A stretch of 64,000 nucleotides of DNA, from positions 34,285-98,284 of the forward strand of contig CAWIPS010000010.1 in the NCBI GenBank assembly GCA_963837995.1. The letters are read 5' to 3'. Below are positions 1 through 16,360 of this stretch, piece after piece (positions within the stretch are counted from its first letter, which is position 1; every line of letters starts with the position of its first letter). A program made the translations under genes and the position numbers. The notes under the pieces are model-generated. The model saw only the letters and a program-made list of their open reading frames with translations, was not told where the DNA came from and did not search any database. This stretch comes from an uncultured Actinomycetota bacterium. GTDB taxonomy: Bacteria > Actinomycetota > Actinomycetes > Propionibacteriales > Nocardioidaceae.

Positions 1-368
1 CCGGCGACGTCCATCCGCAGCTCTGCGAGACCGAACAGCCGAGCGACGAAGGGCTGCACGATGTCGATGCCTTGGATCCGGTCGACCCGGATCCTGCGGG
101 ACTGACGGGAGATGACACCGGTGTCCACACGCAGCTCGTCGGACTCGATCCAGTACTTCGTGCGCAGCCAGGACGTGAACCCGTAGACGCCTCCTGCGAC
201 CAGGATCAGGAGAAGCACCCAGGCGACCGGGCCGAGCCGACCACGCAGCAGGTCGTCCCAGGAGGAGACGAACACAGCAACGAGCAGGATCGCACCGCGC
301 ACCAGCGGAGTGAGCGGTGAGAGCCGTCGGTAGGGGTGCGGGGTCCCTGGCTCGGGGGCCGAGATCAC
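1..368 (-). CDS. PH-domain (bPH_2, YdbT-like) membrane protein, 3' part runs off the window
   Basis: Manual translation from GTG at 368 (GTGA overlap with upstream stop): MISAPEPGTPHPYRRLSPLTPLVRGAILL...WLRTKYWIESDELRVDTGVISRQSRRIRVDRIQGIDIVQPFVARLFGLAELRMDVAG, a typical YdbT pattern; paired with the YdbS-like gene. Confidence 0.8.
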   Translation of the reverse strand, partial: MISAPEPGTPHPYRRLSPLTPLVRGAILLVAVFVSSWDDLLRGRLGPVAWVLLLILVAGGVYGFTSWLRTKYWIESDELRVDTGVISRQSRRIRVDRIQGIDIVQPFVARLFGLAELRMDVA

Positions 369-856
369 AGCCCTGCTGCCTGCGCCTGACCCAGCGACGT
401 CAGCCGGTCCCTCAGCCGGGCCGCCTCGGCCGCCGGCAGGCCAGGTATCCGGGCGCTGGTGCCGGGGCTCGCGGTGTGCAGGTGGACGCTGGCAACCTTG
501 AACGCCTGCTCCAGCGGACCCGCGTGCACGTCGACGTACTGCATGCGCCCGTAGGGCACGACGACGAGGGTGCGGATGAGGGCACCGTGCTTGATGTAGA
601 GGTCCTCGTCGCGCTCGGCGTACCCCCACCATCGTGCGTTCCGGCCGATGACCCACCACCCGAAGACCGTCAGACCCAGCGTCAGGACGACGGCGCCCGT
701 CCAAGACCACACAGGCAGGGAGAACAGCAGCCCGGCCACCACCGCTGCCGCGACGACCACCAGTGCGACTCCGACCAGCTTGGTACGGCGCAGCCGGGCC
801 AGCGCCGGCGACACCGGCTGCCAGTCGCTGCCCGGCGGGGCGAAGAGGTCGTCCAC
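365..856 (-). CDS. PH-domain (bPH_2, YdbS-like) membrane protein
   Basis: Two TM segments followed by YAERDEDLYIKHGALIRTLVVVPYGRMQYVDVHAGPLEQAFKVASVHLHTAS, characteristic of YdbS. Confidence 0.85.
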   Translation of the reverse strand: MDDLFAPPGSDWQPVSPALARLRRTKLVGVALVVVAAAVVAGLLFSLPVWSWTGAVVLTLGLTVFGWWVIGRNARWWGYAERDEDLYIKHGALIRTLVVVPYGRMQYVDVHAGPLEQAFKVASVHLHTASPGTSARIPGLPAAEAARLRDRLTSLGQAQAAGL

Positions 857-1136
857 ACTCGTGAGGCTACGCGCAGCATCCGCAGCGGCTCAGGAGGTCG
901 ACCGCCTGACCTTGGCGAGCTCGTCCAGCACATCGACGTACTGGCGCCCGTGAGCGGGCCTCTTGCCTCCAACAGGGGCATCGGCGCTCCAATGCCATGT
1001 CCGAGCCCTCGGCGTGTGCTCGGAATGTCGACGTCCCGGCCCTGTATGTTGCTGCGGAAGATGGTCATTGATCGAATACGTCAACGTCGATAACTGGACT
1101 CCACGAAAAGCACCATCAGCTCGAAAGGATAATGGG

Positions 1137-2303
1137 GTGACGCTTGATCGCAGCGTCGTTACTCCGCGATCAGGAGTCATCTGGATCAGCGGGTTCTCAG
1201 GATCGGGCAAGACCACCGTTGCCCGCGAGGTAGAGAGTCTCCTTCGCCGTGGAGGCCAGCGAGTGATCCTTCTTGACGGCGACGATCTGCGGAGCATCTT
1301 CGCCGATCGGTGGGGATACGAGAGATCTGAGCGCGTCGAACTCGCCCGAGTCTACTTCCGACTCTGCAGCCACCTGGCCTCTCAGGGCTTCGTCGTAGTT
1401 ATCGCCGCCATCGCGATGTATGACGACGTTCGGGCCTGGGTACATACGAACGTTACTAACAGCACCGAGGTCTTTCTGGATGTTCCGCGTCAAGTCCGCT
1501 TGACGCGCGACGCGGGTACTAAGAAGGTCTACAGCTCCGGAGTTGACCTGGAAGCCATCTATGACCCTTCCGTGAGCCCCGACCTGCGCATAGAGAACTT
1601 CGGGGAGAAGTCGGCCGTCGATACGGCCAACCAGATTGTCGCGTTCTTCCTGGATCAGGATGCCACTGACGAGTCGGACCGGGGCAAGAGCGGCCACTGG
1701 AACACTTACTATGCCATCACAATCGGAGCATTGGACCCATCGCCGTTCGCCATTACCGCGGAGGAGCGAATGCCTGGCGCCTCCGTTGTTCTCGATGTGG
1801 GCTGCGGCAATGGTCGCGACACCTCCTACATCGACAACCGGGGTCACCGGGTCACCGGTCTCGACAGCTCAGCATCCGCCATCGCCCTATGCGAAAAGGT
1901 TCACGAGGCTTCCTCGGCCGACTTCGTCAGCGGGAGTGTGTCCGAATACGTCGACGCATGGACAGATCGGTTCGATGTTCTTTACAGCCGCTTTGTCCTT
2001 CATGCAATGACTGAGTCGGAGGAGCTGGGGCTTTGGCGAGACGCCCGCAAGATTCTCCGTCCGAGCGGGATTGTGATGGTGGAATGCCGGTCGATCAAGG
2101 ATCCTCTTGCACGACAAGGAGAAGTCCTGAGTCCTACTGAGCGAATCGCCGGCCACTACAGACGATTCATCGTCATCGGAGACCTGTGCCGCAGGCTCGA
2201 GGACCGAGGCTTTGTCATTGACTCGGCAACCGAGGCGAACGGTCTGGCCGTGCACGGCGATGAAGATCCTGTGGTCATCCGGGTATTCGCCCACAAGGGA
2301 TGA
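1137..2303 (+). CDS. Adenylyl-sulfate-kinase-like (CysC/PRK05541-type) domain fused to class I SAM-dependent methyltransferase
   Basis: N-domain IWISGFSGSGKTT (P-loop), LLDGDDLR, EVFLDVP...RD; C-domain VLDVGCGNGRD, GLDSS, YSRFVLHA. Start placed at GTG 1137 behind AAGGA rather than ORF-track 963. Confidence 0.85.
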   Translation: MTLDRSVVTPRSGVIWISGFSGSGKTTVAREVESLLRRGGQRVILLDGDDLRSIFADRWGYERSERVELARVYFRLCSHLASQGFVVVIAAIAMYDDVRAWVHTNVTNSTEVFLDVPRQVRLTRDAGTKKVYSSGVDLEAIYDPSVSPDLRIENFGEKSAVDTANQIVAFFLDQDATDESDRGKSGHWNTYYAITIGALDPSPFAITAEERMPGASVVLDVGCGNGRDTSYIDNRGHRVTGLDSSASAIALCEKVHEASSADFVSGSVSEYVDAWTDRFDVLYSRFVLHAMTESEELGLWRDARKILRPSGIVMVECRSIKDPLARQGEVLSPTERIAGHYRRFIVIGDLCRRLEDRGFVIDSATEANGLAVHGDEDPVVIRVFAHKG

Positions 2304-3463
2304 GCACGATGGAGAGCGAGCCAAGCAGTTATCGCGTGGAGGTGGGAGGGCTTGAGCACCTTCGAGGGTACGAGCGCAAGGTCGTGTTCCACGGCGTGAA
2401 TAAGAGCGGCTCCATGGTCATGACCCGGGTGCTCGACAACGCCTACCATAACGCCGGCCGCGGCCACCAGTTCTTCTCGACCTACCTCAAGGTTCCTCGA
2501 GACCACGACCGTCTGCTGGCGCTCATCGACCGCTCGAAGGGACACGCCTTTCTAGGAGCCCATTACCTGTACGGCGCGTTCACGCTCAGGCCCGGAGAGC
2601 ATCTCCTGGCGACTCAGTTCCGCAACCCCCTTCCGAGGGTGCTTTCGTGCTACCAGTGGCTCAAGAACAAGCGTGACGCGGTTGGCGAGCCCTACCCGTC
2701 CTTCGAGGAGTGGGTGCCCAAGACCCGAGGGGTCACCCATTCACAAGTCGAGCAGTTCGCTCTCGGGTTCTCGCCCGAGGGCCGGGCCAAGGTGTCGACC
2801 AGTCATGGGGACGAGCTTCTGGAGCAAGCCATGACGAACATCGAGACGGATGTCTCATGGTTCGGAATAGCTGAGTACTTCGAGGAGAGCGCTTTCGCGA
2901 TGGCCGCCATCTGCGGTCTCCCCACGCTCCCCGCCTGGCAACGGGACGATCGCAACGCCAACCGAGCGCTTGTCGAGGACTGGCCCGCTGGCCGCGTCGA
3001 TCTGGTGCGTGAGGTGTTCCGTTGGGACTTCCTCCTGTACGAGTGGGCGCTGGAACGATTCCGCAACAACCTGTCGCGACTGGAGTTCGGCTCGGACCTC
3101 GAGCGTTACAAGAGTGCGTGCGCCGACCAGTACAAAGATCGGCTCGACCCTGGAGGTCGACCTGTCGACGAGACCGGGATGGACCGAATCGCGGTCCACC
3201 TTGCGCCCGAAGCCTTTGTTCGCTTACGCGCTGAGCACACGGCTCAACAGGCCACGGTGGTGCGCTTGAAAGGTCGGATCCGTGCACTGGAGAAGTCGCA
3301 GGCTGCCAGCGCAGCCTCCGCCGATCGGGCGCAAGAGGCGTTGGCTAGTCTCGCCAAGGGCGAGGAGAATCGACTCTCGCCACCCGGTTCCCACCATTCG
3401 ACGCAGATCTCTCGCTCATGGAGTCGTCGTTTGGTCGGTCGTTTGCGTCGGTTGCTCCAGTAA
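2300..3463 (+). CDS. Sulfotransferase-fold protein (Sulfotransfer_2-like) with C-terminal coiled coil
   Basis: VVFHGVNKSGS (5'-PSB position), FRNPLPRVLSCYQW (3'-PB R-x-P-x-x-R-x-x-S-x-Y), FGIAEYFEES, DFLLYEWALERF; ATGA overlap with the upstream gene. Confidence 0.7.
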   Translation: MSTMESEPSSYRVEVGGLEHLRGYERKVVFHGVNKSGSMVMTRVLDNAYHNAGRGHQFFSTYLKVPRDHDRLLALIDRSKGHAFLGAHYLYGAFTLRPGEHLLATQFRNPLPRVLSCYQWLKNKRDAVGEPYPSFEEWVPKTRGVTHSQVEQFALGFSPEGRAKVSTSHGDELLEQAMTNIETDVSWFGIAEYFEESAFAMAAICGLPTLPAWQRDDRNANRALVEDWPAGRVDLVREVFRWDFLLYEWALERFRNNLSRLEFGSDLERYKSACADQYKDRLDPGGRPVDETGMDRIAVHLAPEAFVRLRAEHTAQQATVVRLKGRIRALEKSQAASAASADRAQEALASLAKGEENRLSPPGSHHSTQISRSWSRRLVGRLRRLLQ

Positions 3464-3605
3464 CCGCTGAAATGATGAATGCGTTTCCTTCCGCAAACCT
3501 TGGGTGAGGCACAGCACTGTCCTGATTGGTGCCTGCGCGGGTCGGGAGGTTCAACCCTGTCGCACGTCCTGGAGAGGCTTCACATGGCGGGACGAGGACG
3601 AGTTG

Positions 3606-6600
3606 CTAACCGAGAACGGTCTGGTGCCAAAGGGACACCGAGTCAGGAGTCAGCATCCTGTTTGCGACGACCCAATCCCTCGACAGCGTTGCGGGGCCGT
3701 GCTCGCGGCGCTCCACGATGACTTCCTCCAAGCGGTCCACCCACTCAGCGATGGTGTCCGCCGTGGTGGCGAGCTCCGGAGGGGGCGATGCGTACGGCCC
3801 CACCGGAGATGCCACCGTTCTCAGTTCCATTGCGCCGTACTCCAAGAGCTTGAGGTCGCTCTTAGCGAGGTTGAAGGTCGTTGCCGCGAGGGGCGCCACT
3901 GCCCCGTCCCAGCGACCGCGATTCTGACGCAGCCACGTGACGAAGGCCGGATACTCGGCACTCGAAGGAACCAAACGCCGCGCCCCCTCGGGGAGATCGA
4001 CGCTCGACACTCCGACGATCTCAAGAACCACTCGCTGTGCGAGACGGTCAGACAGCGCGGCGGGAAGCCCGTCGAGCAACGCCAGATCCTCCCCATGCGT
4101 CTTGCTACCCATGTACAACAGACGTGATTCTGTCGACTTCTGGAGTTTTGGCCCAGTCGTTGGGGTCACCGACGACAGCCACACGCGAGGGTCGAGCTCG
4201 TTTCGAATCTCGACAACGTCGCACTCGGGTCCGTCCAGACTCGAAACGGCTGCGGCAAGTGCCGAAGTACTGACGATGACGCGGTCAGCCTGCCCCAGCA
4301 CTGAACGGAAGGCCTCCAGCCTCTCGCGGTCATAACCTTGACCCAACAGCCGTTCCACCGCAGAGGCAGTGACCAGGTCGTCATCCATTTCGACGACGAG
4401 ACGAGTCTCGCTCTTCTTGACCCGTTCCAGAACGGGACTGGCCAAATGGTCCGGAATCGCATCCCGGATAACGAGCAGGACGTCGACGTCTCTGCAAGCG
4501 CCTGATGCATAGTCCCTGACATCAAGCCTTTCATAGTGTGCGAACGGGGAAGCAAAGCCATAGCGGATTCGCCGATATGCCCTGACGTCGGCTGAGGCAG
4601 GTGGCGCGACGCCCACGGCCTTGTCAAGCACACCCACAGAGACGCTGTCATGGCGTCGCTTGGACCGGACGTACAGACGGTTGTAGTCGTTTCCCATGCT
4701 TCGCAGACTTCGGACCGCATCGACTGGAGCAGCTCCGGTGGCCGAGGAGATCGTGGAAGGGGCACTTGCCAACTCCAGAATTGTTTGCGCAGCTTGCTCG
4801 GGATCGTCGTGCGGAAACGTGATCCCGCCACCGTGATGACGGATTCGGTCGGCCGGTGCCCCGAGGTCTGTGGCGATCACCGGCACGCCCATCGCCCACG
4901 CCTCGCTCACCGTGTGAGCATATGTCTCCGGCCAGATAGAGAATATGCCCACAAGATCGGGGTCGAGCTCGCGCGCGATTGCCGGGAGGTCGAGGCGAAG
5001 GTACTCGCCATGCACGACCGCGAAGTCGACCATGGATTCGCCAGCCGTTCCAAGGACGTGCCACTCGACGTTCGCACCGACGAGGCCCGCGATCTGGCGA
5101 AGCAGGGCCGTCCCTTTGTGCGGGCCCCATACGGCTGGCGCGAGCACCCGAAGCGGACCTGGGAGCCGGTCAGCACGACGCTGCCGGATCAGCTCGAAAC
5201 CGCTCAAGTCTCGTCCGTGCTCGATGATGTCGAGCTTGTCTGCCACGTTTGGGTAAGCGGCGAGCAACGTCTTGGCGGCCGAAGGCGTCGTGGCCACCAC
5301 CCTCTCTGCGGCATTCAAGACTCCCGCCATGCGCGACTGCCAGTCACGAATCCAGCCATTCTTGAGGGGCTGTTCGAACGCGAGTGCTGCTGGGCCGGTA
5401 AGGGTGCAGTTGGTCTGGCCGGGCGTGCAGACACCGCCACAGTAGTTCATCTTCTCGTCTAGCAAAGTCAACGTCGGGCAGACGGGATGGAAGTCATGCG
5501 TCGAGTAGATGAATGGGACAGAGAGGGTCTCACAAACAGTCGCGACAACTGACGTGGGAGTGTGGATCAGGTGGCGGATATGGACCGTTTCGACGTTCCA
5601 CTCTATGAGCACACTGATGAGATACTCGGCATAACGGTCATCCCAGTCGTCTTGTGGAAGGTACGCCGTCTCCGGTTCCCAAGAGTCAATCGAATGGATC
5701 TTTCCGTCCCGGAACTGACCAAGGCTGATGTTGTAGCCCTTGGTGCTCTCGAGAACCAGACTCTCCTGTTCTTCCGTCAGACTCTCCATGAGGTCAACAT
5801 TCGTCTGAGGGGTGCCACCTACCGACCGATGGACGATGTAAAGGCGACGCGGCAGAACCGCGCGCAAGGTCGAAAGCTTCTGCTGAGCACCTCGAGCCTG
5901 CTGACTGATAGATGCGAGTTCAGCGCCCCCCACCCAAGCCCTTACACGGCTCGTGTAGTGCGGCCAACGCGCGTCGACGGCCTGGCGCCCCGACCTGATA
6001 AGGCCTTCGCTCCTACTGCCGAAGGACTGGCTTCGTACGTGTCTGACGAAGACGTGAGGCGCATAGTAGTTCTTGTAGCCGAGGGCATCCGCACGAAGGG
6101 ACCAGTCGTTCTCTTCACCGTATCCTTGCGGGAAGAGCTCCTCGTCGAAGTACCCGACCTGGTTCAAAGCCCTCCGGAGGAGGTAGACGCAGAACCCGTG
6201 GGCCGTGGGAACACATTGAGCCCACACTCGCATGTCTCGCGAGAGTTGCCGACTGATCTCGGCAGAACTGAGCTGTGGCGCCCACTCGTTGGCTCGGCCC
6301 GGCACCGGAAGGGACATCGCGCCTGCATTGTCAGACGTCGGAGTCACCGACGCCACTCTCGGCGAGGAGTACGCAACCCACCGCAGTCGTTCGACGCATA
6401 GCGGGCCAACGACTGTGTCGCTGTTCAAGAGAACAACGTCATCGGCCCCAGCGATTGAGACGCCGTGATTCGCAGTGGCCGTATAGCCCAGATTCTTCTC
6501 GTGTACGACAAGCTCGAAGCCAAACTTCTCGACGCACTGCCGAATGACCGCCTGCGTTGTCACGTCGGTGCTCGCATCGTCAATCACGATCACACGCCAA

Positions 6601-6791
6601 TCCCCGACGTGCTGGCCGAGCGACTCCAGACAGTCCCGGACAGCCGAACCCCCGTTGAAGACTGGCACAATAACCGTTGTGGCCGGCGCGTCGACCAGTT
6701 GACGCATCATGCCCAGGTAGTCAACGCCCTCAGTCGCCGTGACCCCGGCGCACCGTTCGCTGTTGAAGGCGCGATATGGGCCCTCACTCAT
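3606..6791 (-). CDS. Three-domain glycosyltransferase (GT2 + GT4 + GT4-like)
   Basis: GT2: VIVPVFNG, VIVIDDAS, VLLNSDT, GYGEENDW; GT4: SIWPETYAHTVSEAWAMGVPVIATDLGA; third domain: VEMDDDL, FNLAKSDLKLLEYG. Confidence 0.9.
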   Translation of the reverse strand: MSEGPYRAFNSERCAGVTATEGVDYLGMMRQLVDAPATTVIVPVFNGGSAVRDCLESLGQHVGDWRVIVIDDASTDVTTQAVIRQCVEKFGFELVVHEKNLGYTATANHGVSIAGADDVVLLNSDTVVGPLCVERLRWVAYSSPRVASVTPTSDNAGAMSLPVPGRANEWAPQLSSAEISRQLSRDMRVWAQCVPTAHGFCVYLLRRALNQVGYFDEELFPQGYGEENDWSLRADALGYKNYYAPHVFVRHVRSQSFGSRSEGLIRSGRQAVDARWPHYTSRVRAWVGGAELASISQQARGAQQKLSTLRAVLPRRLYIVHRSVGGTPQTNVDLMESLTEEQESLVLESTKGYNISLGQFRDGKIHSIDSWEPETAYLPQDDWDDRYAEYLISVLIEWNVETVHIRHLIHTPTSVVATVCETLSVPFIYSTHDFHPVCPTLTLLDEKMNYCGGVCTPGQTNCTLTGPAALAFEQPLKNGWIRDWQSRMAGVLNAAERVVATTPSAAKTLLAAYPNVADKLDIIEHGRDLSGFELIRQRRADRLPGPLRVLAPAVWGPHKGTALLRQIAGLVGANVEWHVLGTAGESMVDFAVVHGEYLRLDLPAIARELDPDLVGIFSIWPETYAHTVSEAWAMGVPVIATDLGAPADRIRHHGGGITFPHDDPEQAAQTILELASAPSTISSATGAAPVDAVRSLRSMGNDYNRLYVRSKRRHDSVSVGVLDKAVGVAPPASADVRAYRRIRYGFASPFAHYERLDVRDYASGACRDVDVLLVIRDAIPDHLASPVLERVKKSETRLVVEMDDDLVTASAVERLLGQGYDRERLEAFRSVLGQADRVIVSTSALAAAVSSLDGPECDVVEIRNELDPRVWLSSVTPTTGPKLQKSTESRLLYMGSKTHGEDLALLDGLPAALSDRLAQRVVLEIVGVSSVDLPEGARRLVPSSAEYPAFVTWLRQNRGRWDGAVAPLAATTFNLAKSDLKLLEYGAMELRTVASPVGPYASPPPELATTADTIAEWVDRLEEVIVERREHGPATLSRDWVVANRMLTPDSVSLWHQTVLG

Positions 6792-7218
6792 TGGCGTCCC
6801 TGCGGGGCATCAATCTTCCACCGAACCTATCGGCGACATGCAGTGCAGCCCTGACGCTCTTGCGGCTCTCGAGCGCGACCTTCTCCTCCTCGAGGTGGCT
6901 CAACCTGTCGCGCAACCGTCTGACTCGAGCGCGCGCCAGACTGAGTTGGCCCTTTCGCTCAAGCGACCTACGCCCAGCAACTTGCATGCTGCGCCGCAAC
7001 CTGACCTGCTCACGCTGCAGACCTGCGACTCTCTCCCTCAGACTTCGGTTAGCGCGCTTGAGTCGGGCGATGTCACGAGCTAGTTCCGATATGCGAACAG
7101 CACGCTGAGCCGCCACGAGCCTGTACTCGCTGTCGAGCAGGGCCGACCGCTCGAGAATTGTTCGGATGCCCTCAAGTGTGTTTGCCAACTGTGGGCCAGG
7201 CGTTTCCCTCACGTCCAT
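6784..7218 (-). CDS. Small coiled-coil protein, translationally coupled to the three-domain GT
   Basis: 144 aa with heptad-like RISELARDIARLKRANRSLRERVAGLQREQVRLRR...LSHLEEEKVALES; its stop overlaps the GT start region. Confidence 0.55.
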   Translation of the reverse strand: MDVRETPGPQLANTLEGIRTILERSALLDSEYRLVAAQRAVRISELARDIARLKRANRSLRERVAGLQREQVRLRRSMQVAGRRSLERKGQLSLARARVRRLRDRLSHLEEEKVALESRKSVRAALHVADRFGGRLMPRRDANE

Positions 7219-7427
7219 GCATGTCAGTCTGCCACGCGTCGGGTTCCGATTTTCGTTGCGTCGACCTACCTACATCTCGGGCCGGACCACCAGAAGAGAC
7301 CTCCACGCCAAACAGCCGCCGCGGATATTGTCTGACCGGCCAGTTCCAGAGTCGAACTTGAACGAAAGACTGCTCTCGAACGGCGGGCGCTCCCTTGCGA
7401 GGTATGGAAGCTGTCGTTTTCCCAAGC

Positions 7428-10400
7428 TCAGAAGCTGGGTGCCGACCGGTGTCGCCGGAGCTCCAACGCAGTGTCAAGCAGTTGTATGGCCCGCCGCTCG
7501 AACGAGTGCTGCTGATGCACTCGACGAGCGACCCTGCGTCGCTCCTCGGCGGTGCCGAAGGTGTGGTCGAGCGGGTCGTCGCGGACGAGGCCGGCCAGCG
7601 ACGTCGCGTCGGTGGCCACCTGAACTGAACTGCCGAACATGCCCTCCAGACCCGCCACGTCGTCCGAGATCACCCGGGCGCCGCTGGCGACCGCGTCGAA
7701 GAGCCGGTTGGACAGGAAGCCCTCACGCCGCATGTCCTCCCAGTGGTCGTTGAGCACCACGCCTGCGGAGGCGTAGAGCGCCCCCAGCTCGCGGTTCGGG
7801 ACGAAGGTCGCCTTGATGAGGTGCCGGGGGATCAGGTCCTCCCAGTCCGACCCGTAGACCGACAGCGGAAGGCCGGAGGCGACCGAGTGCCTGACGATCT
7901 GCCGGTAGTGCTGTCGCGACCCACCGACGAAGACCACCGGCTCTCCGGCGTCGGTCCGGCCACGGTCCGGGTGGAACAGCTCGGGATCCGTCGCCTGCAG
8001 CAGCGGGTCGATCCGCAGCGACCAGTGCCGGGACATCTTCTCGGCCCAGGAGTGGCTCGCAGCGAACACCCGGTCGTAGCAGGCGGCCTCCCTCCGCGTC
8101 AGCAGCTCCGGATGGGAGATCACCCACGCCAGGTTGACCTGCCCGTAGGCCGGCTGGAACGCCTCGAGGCCGCGCAGCACCAGGACCACGTCGTCGTGGT
8201 GCCCCGAGTGCCGGTGGAAGTCCTCACGGTGGTCGACGACGACCTGCTGGTCGAGCCCGCGCAGCGCGTCCGCCAGGCTGCGCGCGAAGTGGGTGTCGCC
8301 CCAGAGCTCCCGTCGCTCCCCGGCCGGTGACGCGACCTTCAGGGCCCAGCGCAGCCGGGGCAGCGTTCTCGTGCACACTCACCCGGGCGCGGGACAACAC
8401 CGGCTGCGGTGCGCACAGCCGGCGTTCCACACCCTCGCTCGGCACGGTCGCATAGCCGTGCACGTCGAACCCACGACTGGCCCACAGCCGTCTGTCGTCG
8501 CGCGGGGAGCGAGCCTCCCACCGGTCCAGGAACAGCTCACGCTCCAGGGCGGGCACGGAGCCCGCCCCGCGTTCAGGGGTCTGTGCGGGCGGCGTCCGGC
8601 GACCCCCTCGTGAGCGGGCCGGTCGGCTCACCCGTGACTCCGGCGCCAGGACGAAGCGGCCGCGGCGCGTGTGCAGCAGCCGGAGGCAGAGGTCGACGTC
8701 CTCGAGGCCGCCCCGGAACAGCGGGTCGAACCCTTGCAGAGCCACCAGGTCGTCGTACCGCATCGCCGTCGCTGCCCGGCTCAGGGCCATCAGCGGTACG
8801 TCGTCCAGACCCGCCGCGTCGGCGGCAGGGAACCCCTGGAGGAACTCGTAGGGCAACCCGCCACAGCTGGGGAAGGCGAAGCCCGCACAGTCGATGGAGC
8901 CGCTGGCACCGGTCACCAGGGCCTGCGCTCCCAGCACGTCGGGGGACTCCAGTGCCCCGACCAGCGGATCCAGCCAGCGGGGCTGGACGCGCACGTCACC
9001 GGCGAGCCACACGACCACCGAGCCGTTCGCCTGCCGCAGGGCGAGGTTGCTGCTGAGCGCGGCGCCGACCGACGCGGGGATGTGGACGACGCGGACGTCG
9101 TCGAACCTGGCCTCCAGCGAGGACAGCACCACCGAGGTGAGGCTCTGCGACCCGTCGTCGACGACCAGGCACTCGCAGGACCGGCCTGCGGGCGCCCCGG
9201 CCGTGACCACCTGCCTGACGCAGGCCACCGCCTGGCGCCATCCCGCAGCGCTGACCACGACGGTGACCAGGTCCGTGCGCTGGTCACGACGCGACAGGGC
9301 GTCCCAGTCCACGGCGCACCGGTTGAACGCCACGTCGGCCCAGGTCGACACGCGGGCGTGGTCCAGCACGGACGGCTCGACCTCGGCGGCCAACGCCTCC
9401 ACGACCTCCTCGCGGCTCGTGCCCACCGCAGCCACCGACCGGACGGGGAACCGGGACGCCAGGCGGAGCACCAGGTCGGTCTCCCACGAGCCGGGCAGCT
9501 GCTCGTCGAAGCCGCCGACCGCCCAGAACGCGCTCCGGCGGACCACCAGGCGGGCCAGCTCGACGGTCACCGGGGACGCCGGCGGCCCCAGGGCCGCGGA
9601 TGCGGCGGCGTACACGTCGTGCGTGCCGGGCCGCACCACCCGCATCACGTCGGAGGCGGCGGGCGCGTCCTCCTCGGTGCAGACCGCCTGCAGCAGCCGG
9701 AGGCGTCCCGGGGCCCACACGTCCCCGGGGAGGGCCCAGGCGAGGAGGTCACCGGCGGCTCGCCGGGCGGCCCGGTTGAGACCCACCGACGGACGCTCGC
9801 CGGCGGTCCCGTCGTAGGACACGACCACCAGTGCCGCCTCCGGGAACCACCGCTCGAGCTCTCGCCTCAGCTCCACGCCGCGACGGGTCCCGTCGGCGAC
9901 GACGACGACCTCGCGGGCTGCCTGCTCCTGGTCGAGGACCGAGCGCACGGTGCGCTCGAGGGCCCTCGGGTCGGCTCCGGCGGGCACCACCACGGTGACC
10001 AGCGGCTCGCCCGGCCCGGGAGCCGATGACCCCGGAGCCGGCTCCGGCTGCGGTGGGTGCCTGGTCCGGGACCTGGGGACCCGGCTCCTGCGCTCCAGCC
10101 ACTCGCGGTGCCGGGCGGCCACCCAGTCGACCAGCCCCCGGGGCTCGCCCTCGTGCGGCTGGTACCAGTCGTTCGGCGCGAGCCGCTGGCGGGCCCCGAC
10201 CTCCAGGTAGTGGCCCAGCGGCCCGAGGGGATGGGCGGCGGCGGCCGGGCTCGCCGCCCGGTAGGCCTTGAGGTCGAACAGCGGGTGGGTGGCCACGTCG
10301 TAGCGCTGCTGCCGGATGTAGGTGGCCAGGGGGTTGCCGCCCTCGCCCAGTGAGGGGCAGGCGGCGACGACGTGCTCGGTGGCGAACAGCGGGTGCGGGT

Positions 10401-11272: not shown

Positions 11273-14200
11273 TCACCGCTTCAGCAGCCGGTCGTCACCG
11301 ACCCGTCGTCGAAGGGCGCGTACGTCGACCGGAGCTGCTCGCGGGCCGCGGCCCACTTGTCGTCCTCCTCGAGGGCCCCGAGCAGCTCCTCGGTGCTGCG
11401 GACGATGGGGCCCGCGGCCACCGACTCGAAGTCCAGGTAGAGGCCGCGGACCCGGTCGCGGTAGTCCTCGAGGTCGGGGGCCAGGAGGATACATCGGCTT
11501 GTCGGTGACCGCGAAGTCGAACATCGCCGCCGAGTAGTCGGTGACGAGCACGTCGGCGGCCAGGTAGAGCCGAGTGATGTCGGGGTAGGCGGTCACGTCG
11601 ACGACTCGCTCTGGGTCTTTACCCGTGACCGGTGCGCGGTGTTGGGGTGCCCGCGCACCAGCACGGTGACGTCCGGCCGGGCGGAGGTGACGGCCTCCGT
11701 GGTCCAGATGCAGCATCTTCTCCCAGGTGCCGCTCCGCGGCGGGCGTCGTCGCGCCAGGTCGGGGCGTACAGAAGCACCGTCTGGTCCTCGCCCACTCCC
11801 GAGCGCGGTCCCGCACCGCCTCCCGCAACCGGCCGGCCCCGGGGCCGAGGAGTACGTCGCTGCTCGGTCTGCCGATCTCGAGGACCCGGCCGGCGTACTC
11901 GAACGCCCGGCGGAAGATCTCGGTGGCAGAACGGCGTTCGGGGAGACGAGGTAGGTCCCAGGTCCGGGCCTGCGGAGAGCAGGAGCCGAAGGTAATGCTC
12001 GGTGGACATCCGCTGGTGCGGGATGTCGGTGCCGATCCGCTTCAGCGGCGTCCCGTGCCAGGTCTGGAGGTAGACCTGGCCGGGCCGCTTCCGGAAGAAC
12101 CAGGGGCAGGGTGTTGTTGGTGACGAGCAGCCGGGCCGACCCCATGGCGTCGTACCACTCCGGGGTGCCCCGCACCACGGCACGGGTGCCCTCGACGGGG
12201 GCCACGCTGAGGTCCTCGACGCTCCAGACCAGGTCGAGGTCGCTGCCGCTCGTCGAGGAGCCGGTCGCACACCGCGCGGGGAGCCTCGCCTGTGCCGGCG
12301 CCCTCGAAGCACTCGAAGACCACTCGCTGCTCGGGGCCCCGGGCCAGCGCACGGGCATAGCCGCCCGGACCGGAGCTGCTGCTGGCCTAGCGGCTCGCAG
12401 TGGCCGGGGCGCCCACCCGGCTGCGTCGCAGCAGCACCCGTCGGTCCGCGGCGATCTCGACCGACCAGCCGTCGAACGGCGACGGAGCGCTGGGTCGGTG
12501 GTAGAGGTGGCCCGCCAGCACCCGGACCGCCGGCTCGTGCTCGGGGTCGGTGTCCGTCTCGGCGACCAGCGTGTAGAGGTTCGGGGGCAGCTGCGGTCCG
12601 CGTCGTCCCCCATGGCGTGTGCCAGAGCGGCACCTCGACGTGCAGAAGGCGCCGTCCAGGACCTCCAGCGATCCCCGAGCCGGAGTCCGCCCGGGGCCAC
12701 GCAGGAGCAGGCGGCCGTCCGCGACCCGGTGTGCCCGCCCCGTCACGACCATCGAGCGGGTGCCGCGGCCGCACGTCGTCGACCAAGAGGCAGGGCTGGT
12801 CCGGTACTGCGGTCAGTCGGCCGTCGTTGCTGACCACCAGGCACGCCTGCTCGTGGCGGACCGAGGCGGGCTCGAGGTCGCCGACGACGGCCAGGGTCTG
12901 CCGGTCCGGGGTCTGCGCGGCGACCCGGACCCGGCCGGTGACCGGGCTGCCCGTGCGGGGCGCGGCCCGGCCAACCGGACCAGCCATCCCGCATTCCCGG
13001 CTCGTCGGCACGATGGTCGCAGGACACGGCATCCGGACCCACATGGACCTGAGTCAGCGCGACCAGGCCCGGCGCGCTGGCGTCGAGCTCGAACGCGTCC
13101 TGGTCCGCGACCACGCGGTGACCGCAGCGTAGTCCCGGTGCACCTCGATCAGGAGACCGCGGCGGTCCGACCAGCTCGTCGTCACCAGCGCGTCGCGCAC
13201 CCGCACCGTCCTCGGGACGACGGCGCTGCCGTGCTCGCTGCGGGACTCGAGACAGTTCTCGACGCGCATCTGCCCGAATGCCGCGTCGACGCGCAGCTCC
13301 CATCGGGCGACCCGTCTCGACCCGCTGGCGGTGACCAGTGCCTCGAGGTCGACCTCGGCGACCACGGTGGACCGCGAGTGGTTCTCGTGGGCGCGGCGGG
13401 CGGCCAGGTTGCCCCCGGGGTCGACCTCGACCCGCGTCGGGACGACCGGGTACGACGTGTCGGCAGGCCCGACCAGCGAGACCGAGGTCGTCACGTCATG
13501 GCGGTCGGGGTCGACGTAGGACAGTGCGGCCAGGAGGCGGACCGCCAGAACGCCGCTGGTGGACCAGTCCAACGAGTCCAGTCGGGTGGTCAGCCGCAGG
13601 TCCACATCCGCGGATCCTCAGGAGCTCGTCCGGGACCATCGGCGGGTGCGGCTCCAGGGCCGGGATCCGAGCGACGAGATGACCGTCTCGGACGGTCACG
13701 GGGAAGTCGGACCCTTCGAACCCCTCGTCGCGCACGAGCCGCCGCAGTGCGTCGCGATGTCCCTGACGACCCAGCCACACCGCGAGCCGGACCCGCAGCT
13801 CCAGCCCGTCGTCGAGGTCCTCGGGAGCCTGCTGGGCGATCGAGACGAGGTTGTCCTGCAGGACTGCCCAGTAGTCGTCCCCGGCGTCCGCCGCCACCTT
13901 GAGGTAGCCGAAGAAGTCCTGACGCAGCGCCTTGACGTACCAGCTTCGAAGCACCGCCTCCGAGGCTGCCTCGCGCAGGAAGCCGGCGAGCTCCCGCTGG
14001 GTGGCCACCCGGTCCAGGAGATCCTGCATCTCCGCCTTCTGCTGGCTGATCGAGCTCCGGTCATCGCGCTTGCGCCACCGGTAGACCACGTGGGGCAGCA
14101 CGTCGAAGGCGCGGGCCTCGAGGTAGGCGCGGGTGATCGGCACCTGGTCCTCATATCGCGTGCCCTCCGGGAACCGCAGTCCGATCCGGTCCACGAACTC

Positions 14201-14809
14201 GCGGCGGAACACCTTGGTGCAGGCCATCACGTTGGTGAGCATCGCCGGGACGTCGTCGATGGTGGTCGCCAGCCGGCGCCGCGCATGGGCCCGCCTGGCC
14301 CACGGCCGCATCCGCTCGACCCCGCCCTCGTCACGCACGAGGGCGCCGACGACGAAGTCCGAGCCGGACCTGCGCAGCGCGGCCACCATCAACCGGTAGG
14401 CATCGGTGGGGACGGTGTCGTCGGAGTCGGCGAAGGTGACCAGGTCGCCGGTGCTGCGGGCCAGGCCCGCGTTGCGCGCCGCCCCCAGACCCGCGTTCTC
14501 CTGACGGACGACGAGCACGCGAGGGTCTCGCTCGGCGTAGCCGCGGGCGATGTCGGCGCTGCGGTCCGTCGACCCGTCGTCGACGAGGATGACCTCGAGA
14601 TGTTCGTAGGTCTGGGTGAGCAACGAGTCCAGGCACTCGGCGAGATAGTCCTCCACCTGGTAGACGGGCACCACCACGCTCAGGAGTGGCTCCTCGGCCA
14701 GCGGCTCGCCCCGTGCCTCCTCAGCCGCCGGCTGACGGCCGCGGGCAACAGCACCGACAGGGGCGAGCCGCCTGAGCCGGTGGCGGACGCGGTCGGCGGC
14801 TCTGCCCAT
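11273..14809 (-). CDS. Bifunctional GT2 / CDP-glycerol glycerophosphotransferase (TagF-like), multiply frameshifted
   Basis: N-term LSVVVPVYQVEDYLAECLDSLL, ILVDDGSTD, TFADSDD; C-term pieces across frames: YLQTWHGTPLKRIG, LLYAPTWRDD, YPDITRLYLAADVLVTDYSAAMFDFAVTDKP. Several indels between 11300 and 13620. Confidence 0.8.
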
Positions 14810-14944
14810 GCGCCGTAAACCTACCGGTGGGGCAGGAGCGCACCAAGCACCCAGAGAAGAGTGGCGAGCCGCGCCCAAACCATCTTCAACCGGTAGATCC
14901 CGGATCACTCGGACCGGGGCACCGAACTGTCCTAACCTCGATAG

Positions 14945-16360
14945 ATGCCCCGAACCCGTGCCGCCCTGGTCCTCGCGCTGACGACCCTGCTGGTGGCCGG
15001 CATCTGCGCTGTGACCACCTCGCCCTCGCAGGCGACGGTCCGGACGAGGGCCTCGTTCCACCTCTCCTCGCAGCATCCCGTCGCCCGTGAGTTCTTCACG
15101 GCGTCCGGACGCGTGTCCACGCGCTTCCGGCGTCCGGTCCTGGTGCGGGCGCTGATCGGACGCAGCTGGCGGGTGGTCCGGCGCGCGAAGACCTCCCCCC
15201 GCGGGGTCTACCGGGTCACCCGGCTCGCGACCACGACTCGTCGCAGGTACTCCGTGATGGTGCCCGCGGTGCGCCGGTCCGGCCGGATCTTCACCGGGGT
15301 CGTCACCGGCGCCCGGATCGTGTCCCCCGTCCGACAGTCCGCCTCAATGGACGTGCTCCCCCCGATCGCCCAGCGCGGCTCGGCTGCCGCGGACTCATCC
15401 TCGGCGGAGAACTCGGTGGTCGCCCGGTTCTCGCCCGCTCGTCCGGGGCGTCCCGTCACGTTCCGCGAACGGAAGCCCGGCGGCCGCTCGGTGGTCCTCG
15501 GACGTGCCACCCGCCAGGGAGCCGACGGCACCGCCTACTTCTTCGGGGCTGCCGGGACCCGCGTGTTCCAGGCGACCACGGCGTCGCGCTCCGGCGCCCC
15601 GGCGGTGACCACCGGCGTCGCCGGCAGCACCTGGGTCCCCACGTTCGACGACGACTTCTCCGGCACGACCCTGGATCCGGCCAAGTGGACCTATCGCACC
15701 GGCCGGACGTCGTCACGCACCCACTCGACCAACGACAAGCGCTCGGTGTCGATGGGGTCCGGGACGCTGCGGTTGCAGGTCAGGCTCGACCCGTCGGCGC
15801 CCAACACCACCGCAGCCAACACCAGGTACCTCAACGGCCAGATCGGCACGCTCGGCACGTACGACTTCACCTACGGTGTCGCAGCGGCCCGGGTCAGGTT
15901 CTCCCCCGTCCGCGGTCAGCACGGGTCGTTCTGGCTGCAGTCCCCGACCTATGGCCGCGTCCCCGGCAACCCGGCAACCAGCGGCACGGAGATCGACGTC
16001 GCCGAGTTCTTCGGCAGTGGCTACCCGCAGGGCGGCTTGGCCAACTACGTCTACTACGCGGATCGGACCGGTCACAACGTCAAGATCGGTGGCGTGTGGC
16101 CACGAGCCGCCACGCTGGCCCCACGAGGAGACACCTGGTGGAACAGCTTTCATGTGTTCTCGGTGAAGTGGGGTCCGCGGGGCTATACCTTCTACGTCGA
16201 CGGACGCGTGCTGTACGCCACCACCCAGGCCGTCTCCAGGACCAAGCAGTACCTCATTCTCAGCCTGCTCACCTCTGACTGGGAGCTGCCGGACCTCCGA
16301 CGAGCCAGCCTGCCGACGTCGATGTCCGTGGACTGGGCGAGGGTGTGGCAAGCCGGATAG
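14945..16360 (+). CDS. Secreted glycoside hydrolase family 16 protein
   Basis: Signal peptide MPRTRAALVLALTTLLVAGICAV; TFDDDFSGTTLDPAKW, YGVAAARVRF, catalytic GTEIDVAE (ExDxxE), SFHVFSVKW, MSVDWARVW. Confidence 0.85.
   Translation: MPRTRAALVLALTTLLVAGICAVTTSPSQATVRTRASFHLSSQHPVAREFFTASGRVSTRFRRPVLVRALIGRSWRVVRRAKTSPRGVYRVTRLATTTRRRYSVMVPAVRRSGRIFTGVVTGARIVSPVRQSASMDVLPPIAQRGSAAADSSSAENSVVARFSPARPGRPVTFRERKPGGRSVVLGRATRQGADGTAYFFGAAGTRVFQATTASRSGAPAVTTGVAGSTWVPTFDDDFSGTTLDPAKWTYRTGRTSSRTHSTNDKRSVSMGSGTLRLQVRLDPSAPNTTAANTRYLNGQIGTLGTYDFTYGVAAARVRFSPVRGQHGSFWLQSPTYGRVPGNPATSGTEIDVAEFFGSGYPQGGLANYVYYADRTGHNVKIGGVWPRAATLAPRGDTWWNSFHVFSVKWGPRGYTFYVDGRVLYATTQAVSRTKQYLILSLLTSDWELPDLRRASLPTSMSVDWARVWQAG

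What the first reader, a model, noticed from the sequence alone, without database searches (positions are those of the whole stretch)
1137..2303. APS-kinase-like domain fused to a SAM methyltransferase; kinase looks like the non-canonical PRK05541/Cj1415 type
Seen: the kinase has AAIAMY where canonical CysC has FISP, and lacks the RDPKGLY...FTG..PYE signature. Established: Campylobacter Cj1415, annotated as CysC, is actually a cytidine-diphosphoramidate 3'-kinase that works with SAM methyltransferases in MeOPN capsule modification. Inference: the fusion either makes PAPS for the coupled sulfotransferase, or makes and methylates another 3'-phospho-nucleotide donor. No Cj1416-1418 homologues or ATP sulfurylase are visible in the window, so PAPS supply is the simpler reading.
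Basis: partly seen in the sequence, partly recalled or inferred. Interest (0 to 1): 0.75.

Follow-up and report, generated by a model that had tools for sequence, protein, structure and literature searches.

The report
Cj1415-type kinase–methyltransferase glycan-decoration module
This gene, labelled in databases as a sulfate-activating kinase, is instead a relative of the Campylobacter phosphoramidate-pathway kinase fused to a methyltransferase, and it belongs to a widespread, unstudied two-gene kit (kinase-methyltransferase plus a swappable group-transferring enzyme) that most likely puts a small, charged, methylated group on cell-surface sugars.

Summary
Window 1137-2303 (+) encodes a 388-aa fusion of an APS-kinase-fold domain and a class I SAM methyltransferase, with AAIAMY in place of the canonical ISP motif and a shortened lid.

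In maximum-likelihood trees the kinase domain is split from canonical CysC with 100/100 support. It nests among Cj1415/PRK05541-type kinases of MeOPN-type loci. It still misses the PRK05541 cut-off, and no Cj1416-1418 homologues lie in any of 42 fusion loci or in this genome. The genome already has CysD, CysN and a canonical CysC.

The downstream gene has no Pfam hit but folds like heparan sulfate 2-O-sulfotransferase and keeps both PAPS-type motifs.

The fusion is common, with more than 760 protein clusters in at least 7 phyla, and no paper on it was found. It is absent from 40 relatives and sits on a low-GC island.

In other genomes the same fusion pairs with TagF-like, CDP-alcohol phosphotransferase, soluble sulfatase-family or unknown transferases. 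Its methyltransferase family is repeatedly fused to LicD.

Plain PAPS supply is therefore not the best family-wide reading. A PAPS-like donor or decoration that gets methylated is favoured, but unproven. The scan noted a similar fusion on other DNA before.

The parts
1137..2303 (+). Kinase-methyltransferase fusion gene (388 aa). Kinase domain is about residues 1-178 (nt 1137-1670); methyltransferase domain is about residues 180-388 (nt 1674-2300).
   Evidence: ORF and translation. Pfam and NCBIfam hits. Family alignment A1 with invariant residues in both domains. AF2 model with pLDDT 84. Kinase part resembles A. fulgidus APS kinase 7yq1 (TM 0.85) and the MT part resembles 6mro.
2300..3463 (+). 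Sulfotransferase-fold transferase ('ORF2', 387 aa; may start at 2309). Core is residues ~25-290; helical, probably coiled-coil, tail is residues ~303-386.
   Evidence: No Pfam, NCBIfam or PDB sequence hit. AF2 pLDDT 84.5. Foldseek top hits are heparan sulfate 2-O-sulfotransferase 4ndz/3f5f (E 1.5e-6), then 6-OST and SULTs. Invariant HxxNKSGS and RxPxxRxxS motifs. Start overlaps the fusion's stop codon.
3606..6791 (-). 1061-aa multidomain glycosyltransferase (GT2 N-terminal, GT4/GT1 central, unassigned C-terminal third).
   Evidence: Pfam PF00535, PF13439, PF13692 and PF00534.
6784..7218 (-). 144-aa Arg/Leu/Glu-rich ORF with no family hit. It may be a coiled-coil partner, but it is not shown to be a gene.
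   Evidence: ORF list; no Pfam hit. It lies inside the low-GC island.
900..7500 (.). Low-GC island (58-65% GC, against 69-77% in the flanks and 71% genome-wide) that carries the four ORFs above.
   Evidence: Composition profiles and contig GC. The full-length fusion is absent from 40 relatives, including 24 of the same genus.
7428..8378 (-). Glyco_trans_1_2 family glycosyltransferase at the island edge.
   Evidence: Pfam PF13524, 60.6 bits.

Best explanation
The gene is not a CysC. It encodes the kinase-methyltransferase core of a widespread, uncharacterised two-gene glycan-decoration module that this actinobacterium acquired horizontally.

Shown here: the kinase domain belongs to the Cj1415 (cytidine diphosphoramidate 3'-kinase) clade. 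It keeps the P-loop, the DGD catalytic motif and the two arginines that hold the 5'-phospho-anhydride of the nucleotide substrate in APS kinases. The gene is translationally coupled to a heparan-2-O-sulfotransferase-like enzyme that keeps both the 5'-phosphosulfate-type and the 3'-phosphate-type binding motifs.

Inferred: the kinase 3'-phosphorylates a nucleoside 5'-phospho-X compound, making a PAPS-like donor that need not be PAPS. The sulfotransferase-fold enzyme transfers the terminal anionic group X to a cell-wall glycan built by the neighbouring glycosyltransferases. The fused TehB/TPMT-like methyltransferase methylates that anionic group or its nucleotide-bound precursor. The result would be a methylated charged decoration, analogous in logic to O-methyl phosphoramidate but made without the glutamine-derived amidate steps.
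For: Kinase placement:
- Canonical CysC versus (Cj1415-type + fusion) splits at 100/100 (IQ-TREE) and 100 (FastTree, 83 rows).
- Shared signature columns are DGD[DE]LR, G-Y, Asn->Leu/Met and [AS]-M-[YF].
- The true Cj1415 orthologue scores 290.6 bits on NF004041 and fails TIGR00455. The genome's own CysC does the reverse.
- R52, R66, D47 and D49 are invariant across the fusion family.

Partner gene: ORF2 has a sulfotransferase fold with invariant PAPS-type motifs. ORF2-family genes lie directly beside the fusion in 18 of 42 genome loci plus L115 and L116.

PAPS supply is not needed from this gene: the genome has CysD, CysN and a canonical CysC elsewhere.

The same fusion, at 45-60% identity with the same invariant residues, sits beside other enzymes:
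- TagF-like PF04464 (7 loci),
- CDP-OH_P_transf PF01066 (4-5 loci),
- soluble Sulfatase-family proteins (3 loci),
- an unknown family, c10 (6 loci).
By established enzymology the first two families transfer a group from the beta position of an NDP-X donor. Partner type changes at least 15 times on the fusion tree.

The methyltransferase family scores over the TehB cut-off. It is fused to LicD in at least 7 representatives and to a TagF-like domain in one. That ties it to phospho-group transfer rather than to generic sugar O-methylation.
Against: - No enzyme of this family has been assayed, so the substrate is inferred.
- Every sulfotransferase-fold enzyme with a proven function uses PAPS.
- A canonical CysC is present in 16 of 18 genomes with the sulfotransferase-fold partner, against 13 of 22 with other partners. 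This hints that ORF2 may simply use ordinary PAPS.
- TagF-like, LicD and CDP-alcohol phosphotransferases are not known to need a 3'-phosphate on their donor.
- The roughly 13-residue lid deletion, unique to the fusion clade, could mean a substrate larger than a nucleotide.
- The methyltransferase is not specifically related to Cj1419/Cj1420 (27 bits, background level).
- hhalign gives no support for homology between ORF2 and the MeOPN transferase fragment (probability 0.16).
Confidence: 0.35

Rival explanations
1. Plain sulfation cassette. The kinase domain is a divergent APS kinase that makes PAPS for the adjacent sulfotransferase. The fused methyltransferase independently O-methylates a sugar of the same glycan.
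For: - ORF2 has a sulfotransferase fold with PAPS-type motifs.
- APS is available from CysDN.
- The two genes are translationally coupled.
- One genome with an ORF2 partner (G052) has CysD but no canonical CysC, so there the fusion would be the only APS-kinase-like gene.
- Horizontally moved cassettes often carry their own cofactor supply.
Against: - The kinase is separated from canonical CysC at 100/100 and nests in the clade whose one characterised member is cytidine diphosphoramidate kinase (function cited from PMC11800397).
- It fails the apsK equivalog cut-off.
- It lacks the lid segment that carries the FTG motif. That this Phe stacks on the adenine of APS is from my own knowledge of APS kinase structures.
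- A canonical CysC is already present here and in 29 of 40 fusion-bearing genomes.
- More than half of fusion loci have no sulfotransferase-fold neighbour. Four of five such genomes searched have no Sulfotransfer_3 gene anywhere.
- The methyltransferase family tracks LicD and TagF-like phosphotransferases.
Confidence: 0.25
2. WbdD-like capping enzyme acting on the glycan itself. The partner transferase first installs an anionic group (here sulfate, from ordinary PAPS made by canonical CysC). The kinase, its lid cut back, recognises that anionic handle with its conserved arginines and phosphorylates a neighbouring sugar hydroxyl. The methyltransferase then methylates the phosphate. The result is a methyl-phosphate cap that could end chain growth.
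For: - Kinase plus methyltransferase in one polypeptide matches the logic of WbdD (PMC3482155, listed).
- The fusion-specific lid deletion opens the active site.
- Canonical CysC is enriched in genomes with the sulfotransferase-fold partner (16/18 against 13/22).
- Related loci carry giant multidomain polymerase-type GTs, one with a weak coiled-coil match (L116), and an ABC-2 exporter (L115).
- ORF2 here has a helical tail, and the island has a 1061-aa GT2-GT4 enzyme.
- The same idea was raised in scan note e1-5267979.
Against: - No sequence or fold match to WbdD appears among the PDB hits, and the kinase fold differs from WbdD's protein-kinase fold.
- Residues that bind a nucleotide 5'-phospho-anhydride in APS kinases are invariant. 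This is more simply read as a nucleotide substrate.
- No ABC-2 transporter gene lies on this contig.
- Many family methyltransferases stand alone or are fused to LicD with no kinase.
Confidence: 0.2
3. Head-group methylation. The module installs a phosphodiester-linked amino alcohol or amino acid, and the methyltransferase N-methylates that head group, as in phosphocholine or phospho-N-methyl-threonine decorations. The kinase makes the phosphorylated head group.
For: - The methyltransferase family is fused to LicD (the phosphocholine / CDP-alcohol transferase family) in at least 7 representatives.
- Partners include CDP-OH_P_transf and TagF-like enzymes.
- Plant and Plasmodium phosphoethanolamine N-methyltransferases are among the PDB hits (E 3e-8 to 5e-4).
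- From my own knowledge: the C. difficile flagellin type A glycan pairs a TagF-like enzyme with a methyltransferase to make phospho-N-methyl-threonine.
Against: - No cytidylyltransferase gene lies next to the fusion in L113, L114 or this window.
- A sulfotransferase-fold partner does not fit this chemistry.
- An APS-kinase-fold enzyme that keeps the nucleotide-binding arginines is an unlikely amino-alcohol kinase.
Confidence: 0.08

Closest known systems
Cj1415 cytidine diphosphoramidate 3'-kinase and the C. jejuni MeOPN pathway (Cj1415-Cj1422)
   Same: The kinase domain lies in the same clade and shares its signature residues. A methyltransferase gene lies directly next to the kinase in many MeOPN-type loci, in the same kinase-then-methyltransferase order as in the fusion (coordinates). 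The overall logic of 3'-kinase + methyltransferase + group transferase decorating a surface glycan is shared.
   Different: - No Cj1416, Cj1417 or Cj1418 homologues occur in 42 fusion loci or in this genome, while 21-29 of the stand-alone kinase loci have each.
- The fusion scores below the NF004041 cut-off and lacks about 13 lid residues.
- The methyltransferase is not Cj1419/1420-like.
- The transferase is not of the NF058596 MeOPN-transferase family.
Canonical adenylyl-sulfate kinase CysC (EC 2.7.1.25; TIGR00455, PF01583)
   Same: Same P-loop kinase fold (TM 0.85 to A. fulgidus APS kinase 7yq1). The P-loop, DGD motif and two substrate arginines are present.
   Different: Fails the equivalog cut-off (83.7 against 138.7). 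Separated at 100/100 in the tree. The ISP motif, the Asn of the DRxxN motif and the KGLY...FTG lid are changed or deleted. A true CysC exists elsewhere in the genome.
WbdD of E. coli O9a (bifunctional kinase/methyltransferase chain terminator)
   Same: Kinase and SAM methyltransferase lie in one polypeptide in a polysaccharide locus with multidomain polymerising GTs. A helical tail is present in the module, here on ORF2.
   Different: WbdD's kinase has a protein-kinase-like fold and its domain order is methyltransferase-then-kinase (own knowledge; PMC3482155 is listed). WbdD does not appear among the sequence or fold hits.
Heparan sulfate 2-O- and 6-O-sulfotransferases (for the coupled ORF2)
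   Same: Best structural matches are 4ndz/3f5f (E 1.5e-6, probability 1.0) and 5t03. A Lys-bearing loop and the Arg...Ser 3'-phosphate motif are conserved.
   Different: Only 15-17% identity. No Pfam sulfotransferase family hit even at E = 10. It is bacterial and carries a helical tail in this lineage.
LicD / TagF-like / CDP-alcohol phosphotransferase decoration systems
   Same: These families are the alternative partners, or fusion partners, of the same kinase-methyltransferase or methyltransferase family.
   Different: In this window the partner is sulfotransferase-fold. No CDP-alcohol-forming cytidylyltransferase lies next to the fusion in the loci inspected.

Membership tests
Canonical APS kinase CysC (TIGR00455 / PF01583) | Scores above the TIGR00455 equivalog-domain cut-off (138.7 bits) | tested here: not met
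   83.7 bits. The genome's own CysC scores 183.1.
Canonical APS kinase CysC (TIGR00455 / PF01583) | P-loop, DGD motif and substrate arginines | tested here: met
   GFSGSGKT, LDGDDLR and R66 are present; D47, D49, R52 and R66 are invariant in the family.
Canonical APS kinase CysC (TIGR00455 / PF01583) | I-S/A-P motif and full lid (RDxKGLYxKAxxGxIxxFTG..PYE) | tested here: not met
   AAIAMY replaces the motif, and about 13 lid residues are absent.
Canonical APS kinase CysC (TIGR00455 / PF01583) | Groups with canonical CysC in a phylogeny | tested here: not met
   The canonical group is split off at 100/100 and at 100.
Canonical APS kinase CysC (TIGR00455 / PF01583) | Phosphorylates APS to PAPS | not testable with these tools
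   Needs an enzyme assay.
Cj1415-type cytidine diphosphoramidate kinase (NF004041 PRK05541) | Scores above the NF004041 cut-off (127 bits) over the full profile | tested here: not met
   115.4 bits over profile positions 5-126 of 176. The C. jejuni orthologue scores 290.6 bits over positions 4-171.
Cj1415-type cytidine diphosphoramidate kinase (NF004041 PRK05541) | Lies in the same clade as Cj1415 and shares its signature columns | tested here: met
   Trees; DGD[DE]LR, G-Y, Asn->Leu/Met and [AS]M[YF].
Cj1415-type cytidine diphosphoramidate kinase (NF004041 PRK05541) | Genomic association with the amidate-building enzymes Cj1416, Cj1417 and Cj1418 | tested here: not met
   None in the fusion loci within +/-10 kb, and none in the own genome. 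By contrast 21-29 stand-alone kinase loci have each of them.
Cj1415-type cytidine diphosphoramidate kinase (NF004041 PRK05541) | 3'-phosphorylates cytidine diphosphoramidate | not testable with these tools
   Needs an enzyme assay.
Class I SAM-dependent methyltransferase (TehB/TPMT-like) | Rossmann SAM-binding motifs and Pfam cut-offs | tested here: met
   Methyltransf_25 56.6 bits, Methyltransf_11 53.5 bits, TehB 30.8 bits (cut-off 20.4). Fold matches 6mro with TM 0.82.
WbdD-type kinase/methyltransferase chain terminator | Protein-kinase-fold kinase, methyltransferase and C-terminal coiled coil in one protein | tested here: not met
   The kinase has an APS-kinase fold. WbdD is not among the PDB sequence or fold hits. 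The helical tail is on ORF2, not on the fusion.
PAPS-dependent carbohydrate sulfotransferase (for ORF2) | Sulfotransferase fold with 5'-PSB and 3'-PB motifs | tested here: met
   Foldseek to 4ndz/3f5f, E 1.5e-6. Invariant NKSGS and RxPxxRxxS motifs.
PAPS-dependent carbohydrate sulfotransferase (for ORF2) | Membership of a curated sulfotransferase sequence family | tested here: not met
   No Pfam or NCBIfam hit. Relatives are named 'hypothetical protein' almost throughout.
PAPS-dependent carbohydrate sulfotransferase (for ORF2) | Uses PAPS and transfers sulfate | not testable with these tools
   Needs an enzyme assay.

The most novel reading that the evidence does not exclude
The fusion builds a third kind of PAPS-type donor. 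The methyltransferase methylates the terminal phosphate of a common nucleoside diphosphate such as CDP or ADP. This turns it into a singly charged, sulfate-like methyl-phosphate group, in effect a 'CDP-methanol'. The Cj1415-type kinase then adds the 3'-phosphate. The swappable partners all transfer the beta group of NDP-X donors: sulfotransferase-fold, TagF-like, CDP-alcohol phosphotransferase, LicD and soluble sulfatase-family enzymes. They would place O-methyl phosphate on glycans. This route would need no dedicated precursor genes and would explain every partner type at once.
Probability: 0.15. Interest if true: 0.85.

Novelty: new variant of a known kind. Interest (0 to 1): 0.66.

Why it matters
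Hundreds of proteins across at least seven phyla are annotated 'adenylyl-sulfate kinase' or 'CysN/CysC' although they are not CysC by tree, model cut-off or motifs. Sulfur-metabolism inferences drawn from those labels are therefore wrong.

The family links the only characterised non-sulfate member of the APS-kinase fold (Cj1415) to a much larger set of surface-glycan decoration modules that lack the phosphoramidate-building genes. Working out its substrate could reveal a new nucleotide-activated donor or a new methylated anionic glycan decoration. It could also clarify where methylation enters the MeOPN pathway; Cj1419 and Cj1420 still have no assigned function according to PMC11800397.

The two-gene module is small and soluble, and it relies on common metabolites. 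It is therefore directly testable in vitro.

Tried and rejected
1. Cj1419/Cj1420 ancestry of the methyltransferase domain. A profile of the fusion methyltransferase scores MeOPN-locus methyltransferases at 20-27 bits, no better than unrelated methyltransferases of the own genome. Rejected.
2. Homology of ORF2 to the MeOPN transferase family. BLAST found nothing, hhalign gave probability 0.16, and there is no NF058596 hit. Not supported.
3. A TehB-like His/Arg oxyanion site in the C-terminal ECRSxxDP...GHYRRF motif. Searching the C-terminal 110 residues against PDB sequences gave nothing useful. Untestable here.
4. Absence of sulfate activation in fusion genomes as an argument against APS. G060 and G057 lack CysD, Sat and CysC hits. 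But G057 has 12 Sulfotransfer_3 genes, so gaps in the MAGs are likely. The argument is kept only as weak.
5. Sulfate-activation genes next to the fusion. Only 1 of 42 loci (L038) has CysD-CysNC within 10 kb.
6. Identity of partner family c10. No Pfam, NCBIfam or PDB profile hit.
7. The Cj1415 paper itself (PMC5938747) is not held. Its substrate data are cited only through PMC11800397 and from memory.
8. Promoter and terminator scans of 800-3700 found nothing.
9. An ABC-2 exporter beside the island. None lies on this contig.
10. The first full treekit run on 83 rows timed out. It was replaced by FastTree and a 39-row IQ-TREE run (rows left out: L104 and L108 as long branches, and most near-duplicates).
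Full report
**The observation**

Window 1137-2303 (+) is an open frame of 388 aa. It starts at GTG 1137, 7 nt downstream of GAAAGGA. Pfam places an APS_kinase domain on residues 12-133, covering only profile positions 2-124 of 152. It places class I SAM methyltransferase domains on residues ~216-315. The best NCBIfam model is NF004041 (PRK05541) at 115.4 bits, under its cut-off of 127. The apsK equivalog model TIGR00455 gives 83.7 bits against a cut-off of 138.7.

P-loop, DGD and SAM-binding motifs are intact and conserved in a 24-sequence family alignment with invariant residues in both halves. The deposited protein for this gene starts 42 residues too late and removes the P-loop.

**Which kinase it is**

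I recovered a C. jejuni locus (L082) with clear orthologues of Cj1415-Cj1420 and part of a MeOPN transferase.
- The Cj1415 orthologue scores 290.6 bits on NF004041 and fails TIGR00455.
- The genome's own canonical CysC does the reverse.
- So PRK05541 really is the Cj1415 type.

A FastTree of 83 kinase domains was built from 38 fusions, 36 stand-alone relatives and 9 canonical CysC. A 39-row IQ-TREE (LG+C20 PMSF) was run as well. Both split canonical CysC from everything else with full support (100; 100/100). Both place the fusion kinases among the stand-alone Cj1415-type kinases. The main fusion clade has support 99/96; a single origin of all fusions has only 65/81.

Group consensus columns show that the fusion shares these features with the Cj1415 type: DGD[DE]LR, Gly-Tyr for Gly-Phe, Leu/Met for the Asn of DRxxN, and [AS]-Met-[Tyr/Phe] for Ser/Ala-Pro-[Tyr/Phe]. 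The fusion alone has lost about 13 lid residues. It is therefore a derived offshoot of the Cj1415 clade. It is neither a CysC nor a bona fide Cj1415 orthologue.

**Pathway context**

According to PMC11800397, Cj1415-Cj1418 together make CDP-phosphoramidate 3'-phosphate, and Cj1419 and Cj1420 have no assigned function.
- Among the stand-alone kinase loci, 21-29 carry homologues of each of Cj1416, Cj1417 and Cj1418.
- None of the fusion loci does within +/-10 kb.
- This genome has no Cj1418 or convincing Cj1417 homologue.

On the sulfate side the genome has these genes:

| Gene | Position |
|---|---|
| CysD | C10:215064 |
| CysN | C10:215888 |
| Canonical CysC (TIGR00455 179-183 bits) | C10:206536 |
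| CysH-type gene | C5 |
| Sat-type sulfurylase | none found |

PAPS can therefore be made without the fusion.

**The coupled gene**

ORF2 (2300/2309-3463) overlaps the fusion's stop codon. It has no Pfam, NCBIfam or PDB sequence match. An AlphaFold model built on 13 family members (pLDDT 84.5) matches heparan sulfate 2-O-sulfotransferase best (E 1.5e-6, probability 1.0). The 6-O-sulfotransferase and cytosolic sulfotransferases follow.

The family keeps an invariant HxxNKSGS loop and an RxPxxRxxS motif. These are the 5'-phosphosulfate and 3'-phosphate binding signatures of sulfotransferases; the motif assignment comes from established knowledge of the fold. Residues ~303-386 form long helices found only in the Nocardioides-like versions. 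Database relatives are almost all 'hypothetical protein'.

**Distribution**

The fusion architecture is common. It has 767 clusters at E <= 0.001 among the candidates scored, named 'adenylyl-sulfate kinase' or 'CysN/CysC' where named at all. It is found in species genomes of Actinomycetota, Pseudomonadota, Verrucomicrobiota, Gemmatimonadota, Thermodesulfobacteriota and others.

In this lineage it is foreign.
- None of 40 relatives, including 24 of the same genus, has a full-length copy.
- The gene lies on a block of ~6.6 kb at 58-65% GC, in a 71% GC genome.
- The block also carries ORF2, a 1061-aa GT2-GT4 enzyme and a small unassigned ORF.
- The block abuts a native cluster of TagF-like and GT2 genes, that is, a teichoic-acid-type glycopolymer locus.

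**A swappable partner**

The fusion is almost always directly adjacent to one transferase, and the family of that transferase varies:

| Partner next to the fusion | Loci |
|---|---|
| ORF2 family (sulfotransferase fold) | 18 of 42, plus L115 and L116 |
| TagF-like PF04464 | 7 |
| Unknown family c10 | 6 |
| CDP-alcohol phosphatidyltransferase PF01066 | 4-5 |
| Soluble Sulfatase-family protein without TM helices | 3 |

On a tree of the fusion proteins the partner type changes at least 15 times. Sister taxa with different partners are supported by starred branches.

An unfused version occurs in L070: a c10-like gene, then a Cj1415-type kinase, then a Cj1419-like methyltransferase, with no Cj1416-1418 within 7-8 kb. 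Related ORF2-type loci carry large polymerising GTs, one of 1896 aa with a weak coiled-coil match. One of these loci has an ABC-2 exporter. No ABC-2 gene lies on this genome's contig.

**The methyltransferase**

Its C-terminal half carries a family-specific, arginine-rich motif (ECRSxxDP...TER..GHYRRF) with no PDB counterpart. It passes the TehB model cut-off.

A profile of the domain finds 1148 cluster representatives at E <= 1e-30. Of the best 150:
- 96 are stand-alone;
- 34 carry the kinase;
- at least 7 are fused to LicD (66-114 bits, in both domain orders, once together with a GT8);
- one is fused to a TagF-like domain;
- one is fused to a GT2.

Relatives of this genome, and this genome itself (contig C4), have LicD-like-methyltransferase paralogues. 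The domain is not specifically related to Cj1419/Cj1420. So the methyltransferase travels with enzymes that install phospho- or sulfo-groups from activated donors. It does not travel with glycosyltransferases in general.

**Mechanism**

What is shown:
- the clade of the kinase;
- intact catalytic and anion-binding residues;
- the sulfotransferase fold and motifs of the coupled enzyme;
- horizontal origin;
- partner swapping;
- the methyltransferase's association with phospho-group transferases.

What is inferred: TagF-like, LicD, CDP-alcohol phosphotransferase and sulfotransferase-fold enzymes share one chemistry. In each, an acceptor hydroxyl attacks the beta group of a nucleoside 5'-diphospho-X or phosphosulfate donor, and a nucleoside monophosphate leaves.

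I therefore favour this reading at about 0.35. The fusion prepares or modifies such a donor by 3'-phosphorylation, with methylation of the anionic group or its precursor. ORF2 transfers the group to the cell-wall glycan.

The sharpest version needs no extra genes: methylation of the terminal phosphate of CDP or ADP followed by 3'-phosphorylation, giving a methyl-phosphate donor. I rate it at about 0.15.

Evidence against this reading:
- TagF-like, LicD and CDP-alcohol phosphotransferases are not known to need a 3'-phosphate.
- The lid deletion might signal a bulky substrate.
- A canonical CysC is present in 16 of 18 genomes with the sulfotransferase-fold partner, against 13 of 22 with other partners. 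The genomes are related and so not independent, and many are MAGs. Even so, this suggests ORF2 may simply use ordinary PAPS.

That last point feeds the two main rivals:
- a plain sulfation cassette with an independent O-methyltransferase (0.25);
- a WbdD-like enzyme that phosphorylates and methylates the glycan next to the group installed by the partner (0.2).

A head-group N-methylation scheme is a minor rival (0.08).

**Comparison with known systems and novelty**

The closest known system is the C. jejuni MeOPN pathway. The kinase clade and the trio of kinase, methyltransferase and transferase are shared. The amidate-building genes, the methyltransferase family and the transferase family are not.

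It works like a PAPS-type or MeOPN-type donor system, but it fails membership tests for both CysC and Cj1415 proper. Four literature searches found no paper describing an APS-kinase-methyltransferase fusion.

Two notes from this scan bear on the finding. One, on this same window, proposes a WbdD-like capping module. The other, on another genome, reports a similar fusion with a sulfotransferase-like partner. I used both as leads only.

I class the finding as a new variant of a known kind, with interest 0.66. The fusion is common and consistently mislabelled, its substrate is unknown, and it is easy to test.

Noticed in passing
window 11273-13044 (-): A TagF-like (PF04464) gene appears split over two overlapping reading frames. 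Profile positions 247-290 fall in one frame and 91-122 in the other. This suggests a frameshifted pseudogene or a sequencing error in the native teichoic-acid-type cluster.
   Followed up: partly
window 21480-25082 (+) and 25041-28631 (-): Two very large (~1200 aa) TagF-like proteins, one with a C-terminal GT1 domain, converge here. They are probably the native poly(polyol phosphate) polymerases that the island's products might decorate.
   Followed up: no
own genome C4, about 86.0-87.6 kb (outside the window): A paralogue in which a LicD-like N-terminal domain (PF04991, 24.9 bits) is fused to a methyltransferase of the same special family (72 bits to the family profile). Relatives G012 and G035 have closer versions (105-109 bits).
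   Followed up: partly
own genome C10:206536-207057 and C10:215064-217114 (outside the window): The canonical CysC lies inside a 916-923-aa open frame about 9 kb upstream of CysD-CysN, which run to the contig end. What flanks CysC in that long frame was not resolved.
   Followed up: no
L070:7195-9667: An unfused three-gene version in a Pseudomonas MAG: a c10-like transferase, a Cj1415-type kinase and a Cj1419-like methyltransferase. No Cj1416-1418 homologues lie within 7-8 kb. This may be an intermediate between MeOPN loci and the fusion module.
   Followed up: partly
L014:about 4660-5210 and 14636-15046: One proteobacterial MAG has a second, very divergent stand-alone APS-kinase-like gene 5 kb upstream of its fusion. 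A Cj1416-like nucleotidyltransferase lies 3.5 kb downstream.
   Followed up: no
G057 (genome of L033), contig C4: This genome has twelve Sulfotransfer_3 genes, several of them in tandem at 263-273 kb. Yet no CysC, CysD or Sat was detected. Either the MAG has gaps or its PAPS source is unusual.
   Followed up: no
L074, L078, L081 (Pelagibacteraceae single-cell genomes): Cj1415-clade stand-alone kinases occur in Pelagibacteraceae. From my own knowledge this group lacks assimilatory sulfate activation, so these kinases are probably not APS kinases either. Their neighbours were not examined.
   Followed up: no
window 3-856 (-): Two bacterial PH-domain (bPH_2) genes lie just upstream of the island at native GC. 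They mark the island's left boundary.
   Followed up: no
window 1137-1262: The deposited gene model for the fusion (346 aa) starts at Val43 and omits the P-loop. Homologues and a good ribosome-binding site support the start at 1137.
   Followed up: yes
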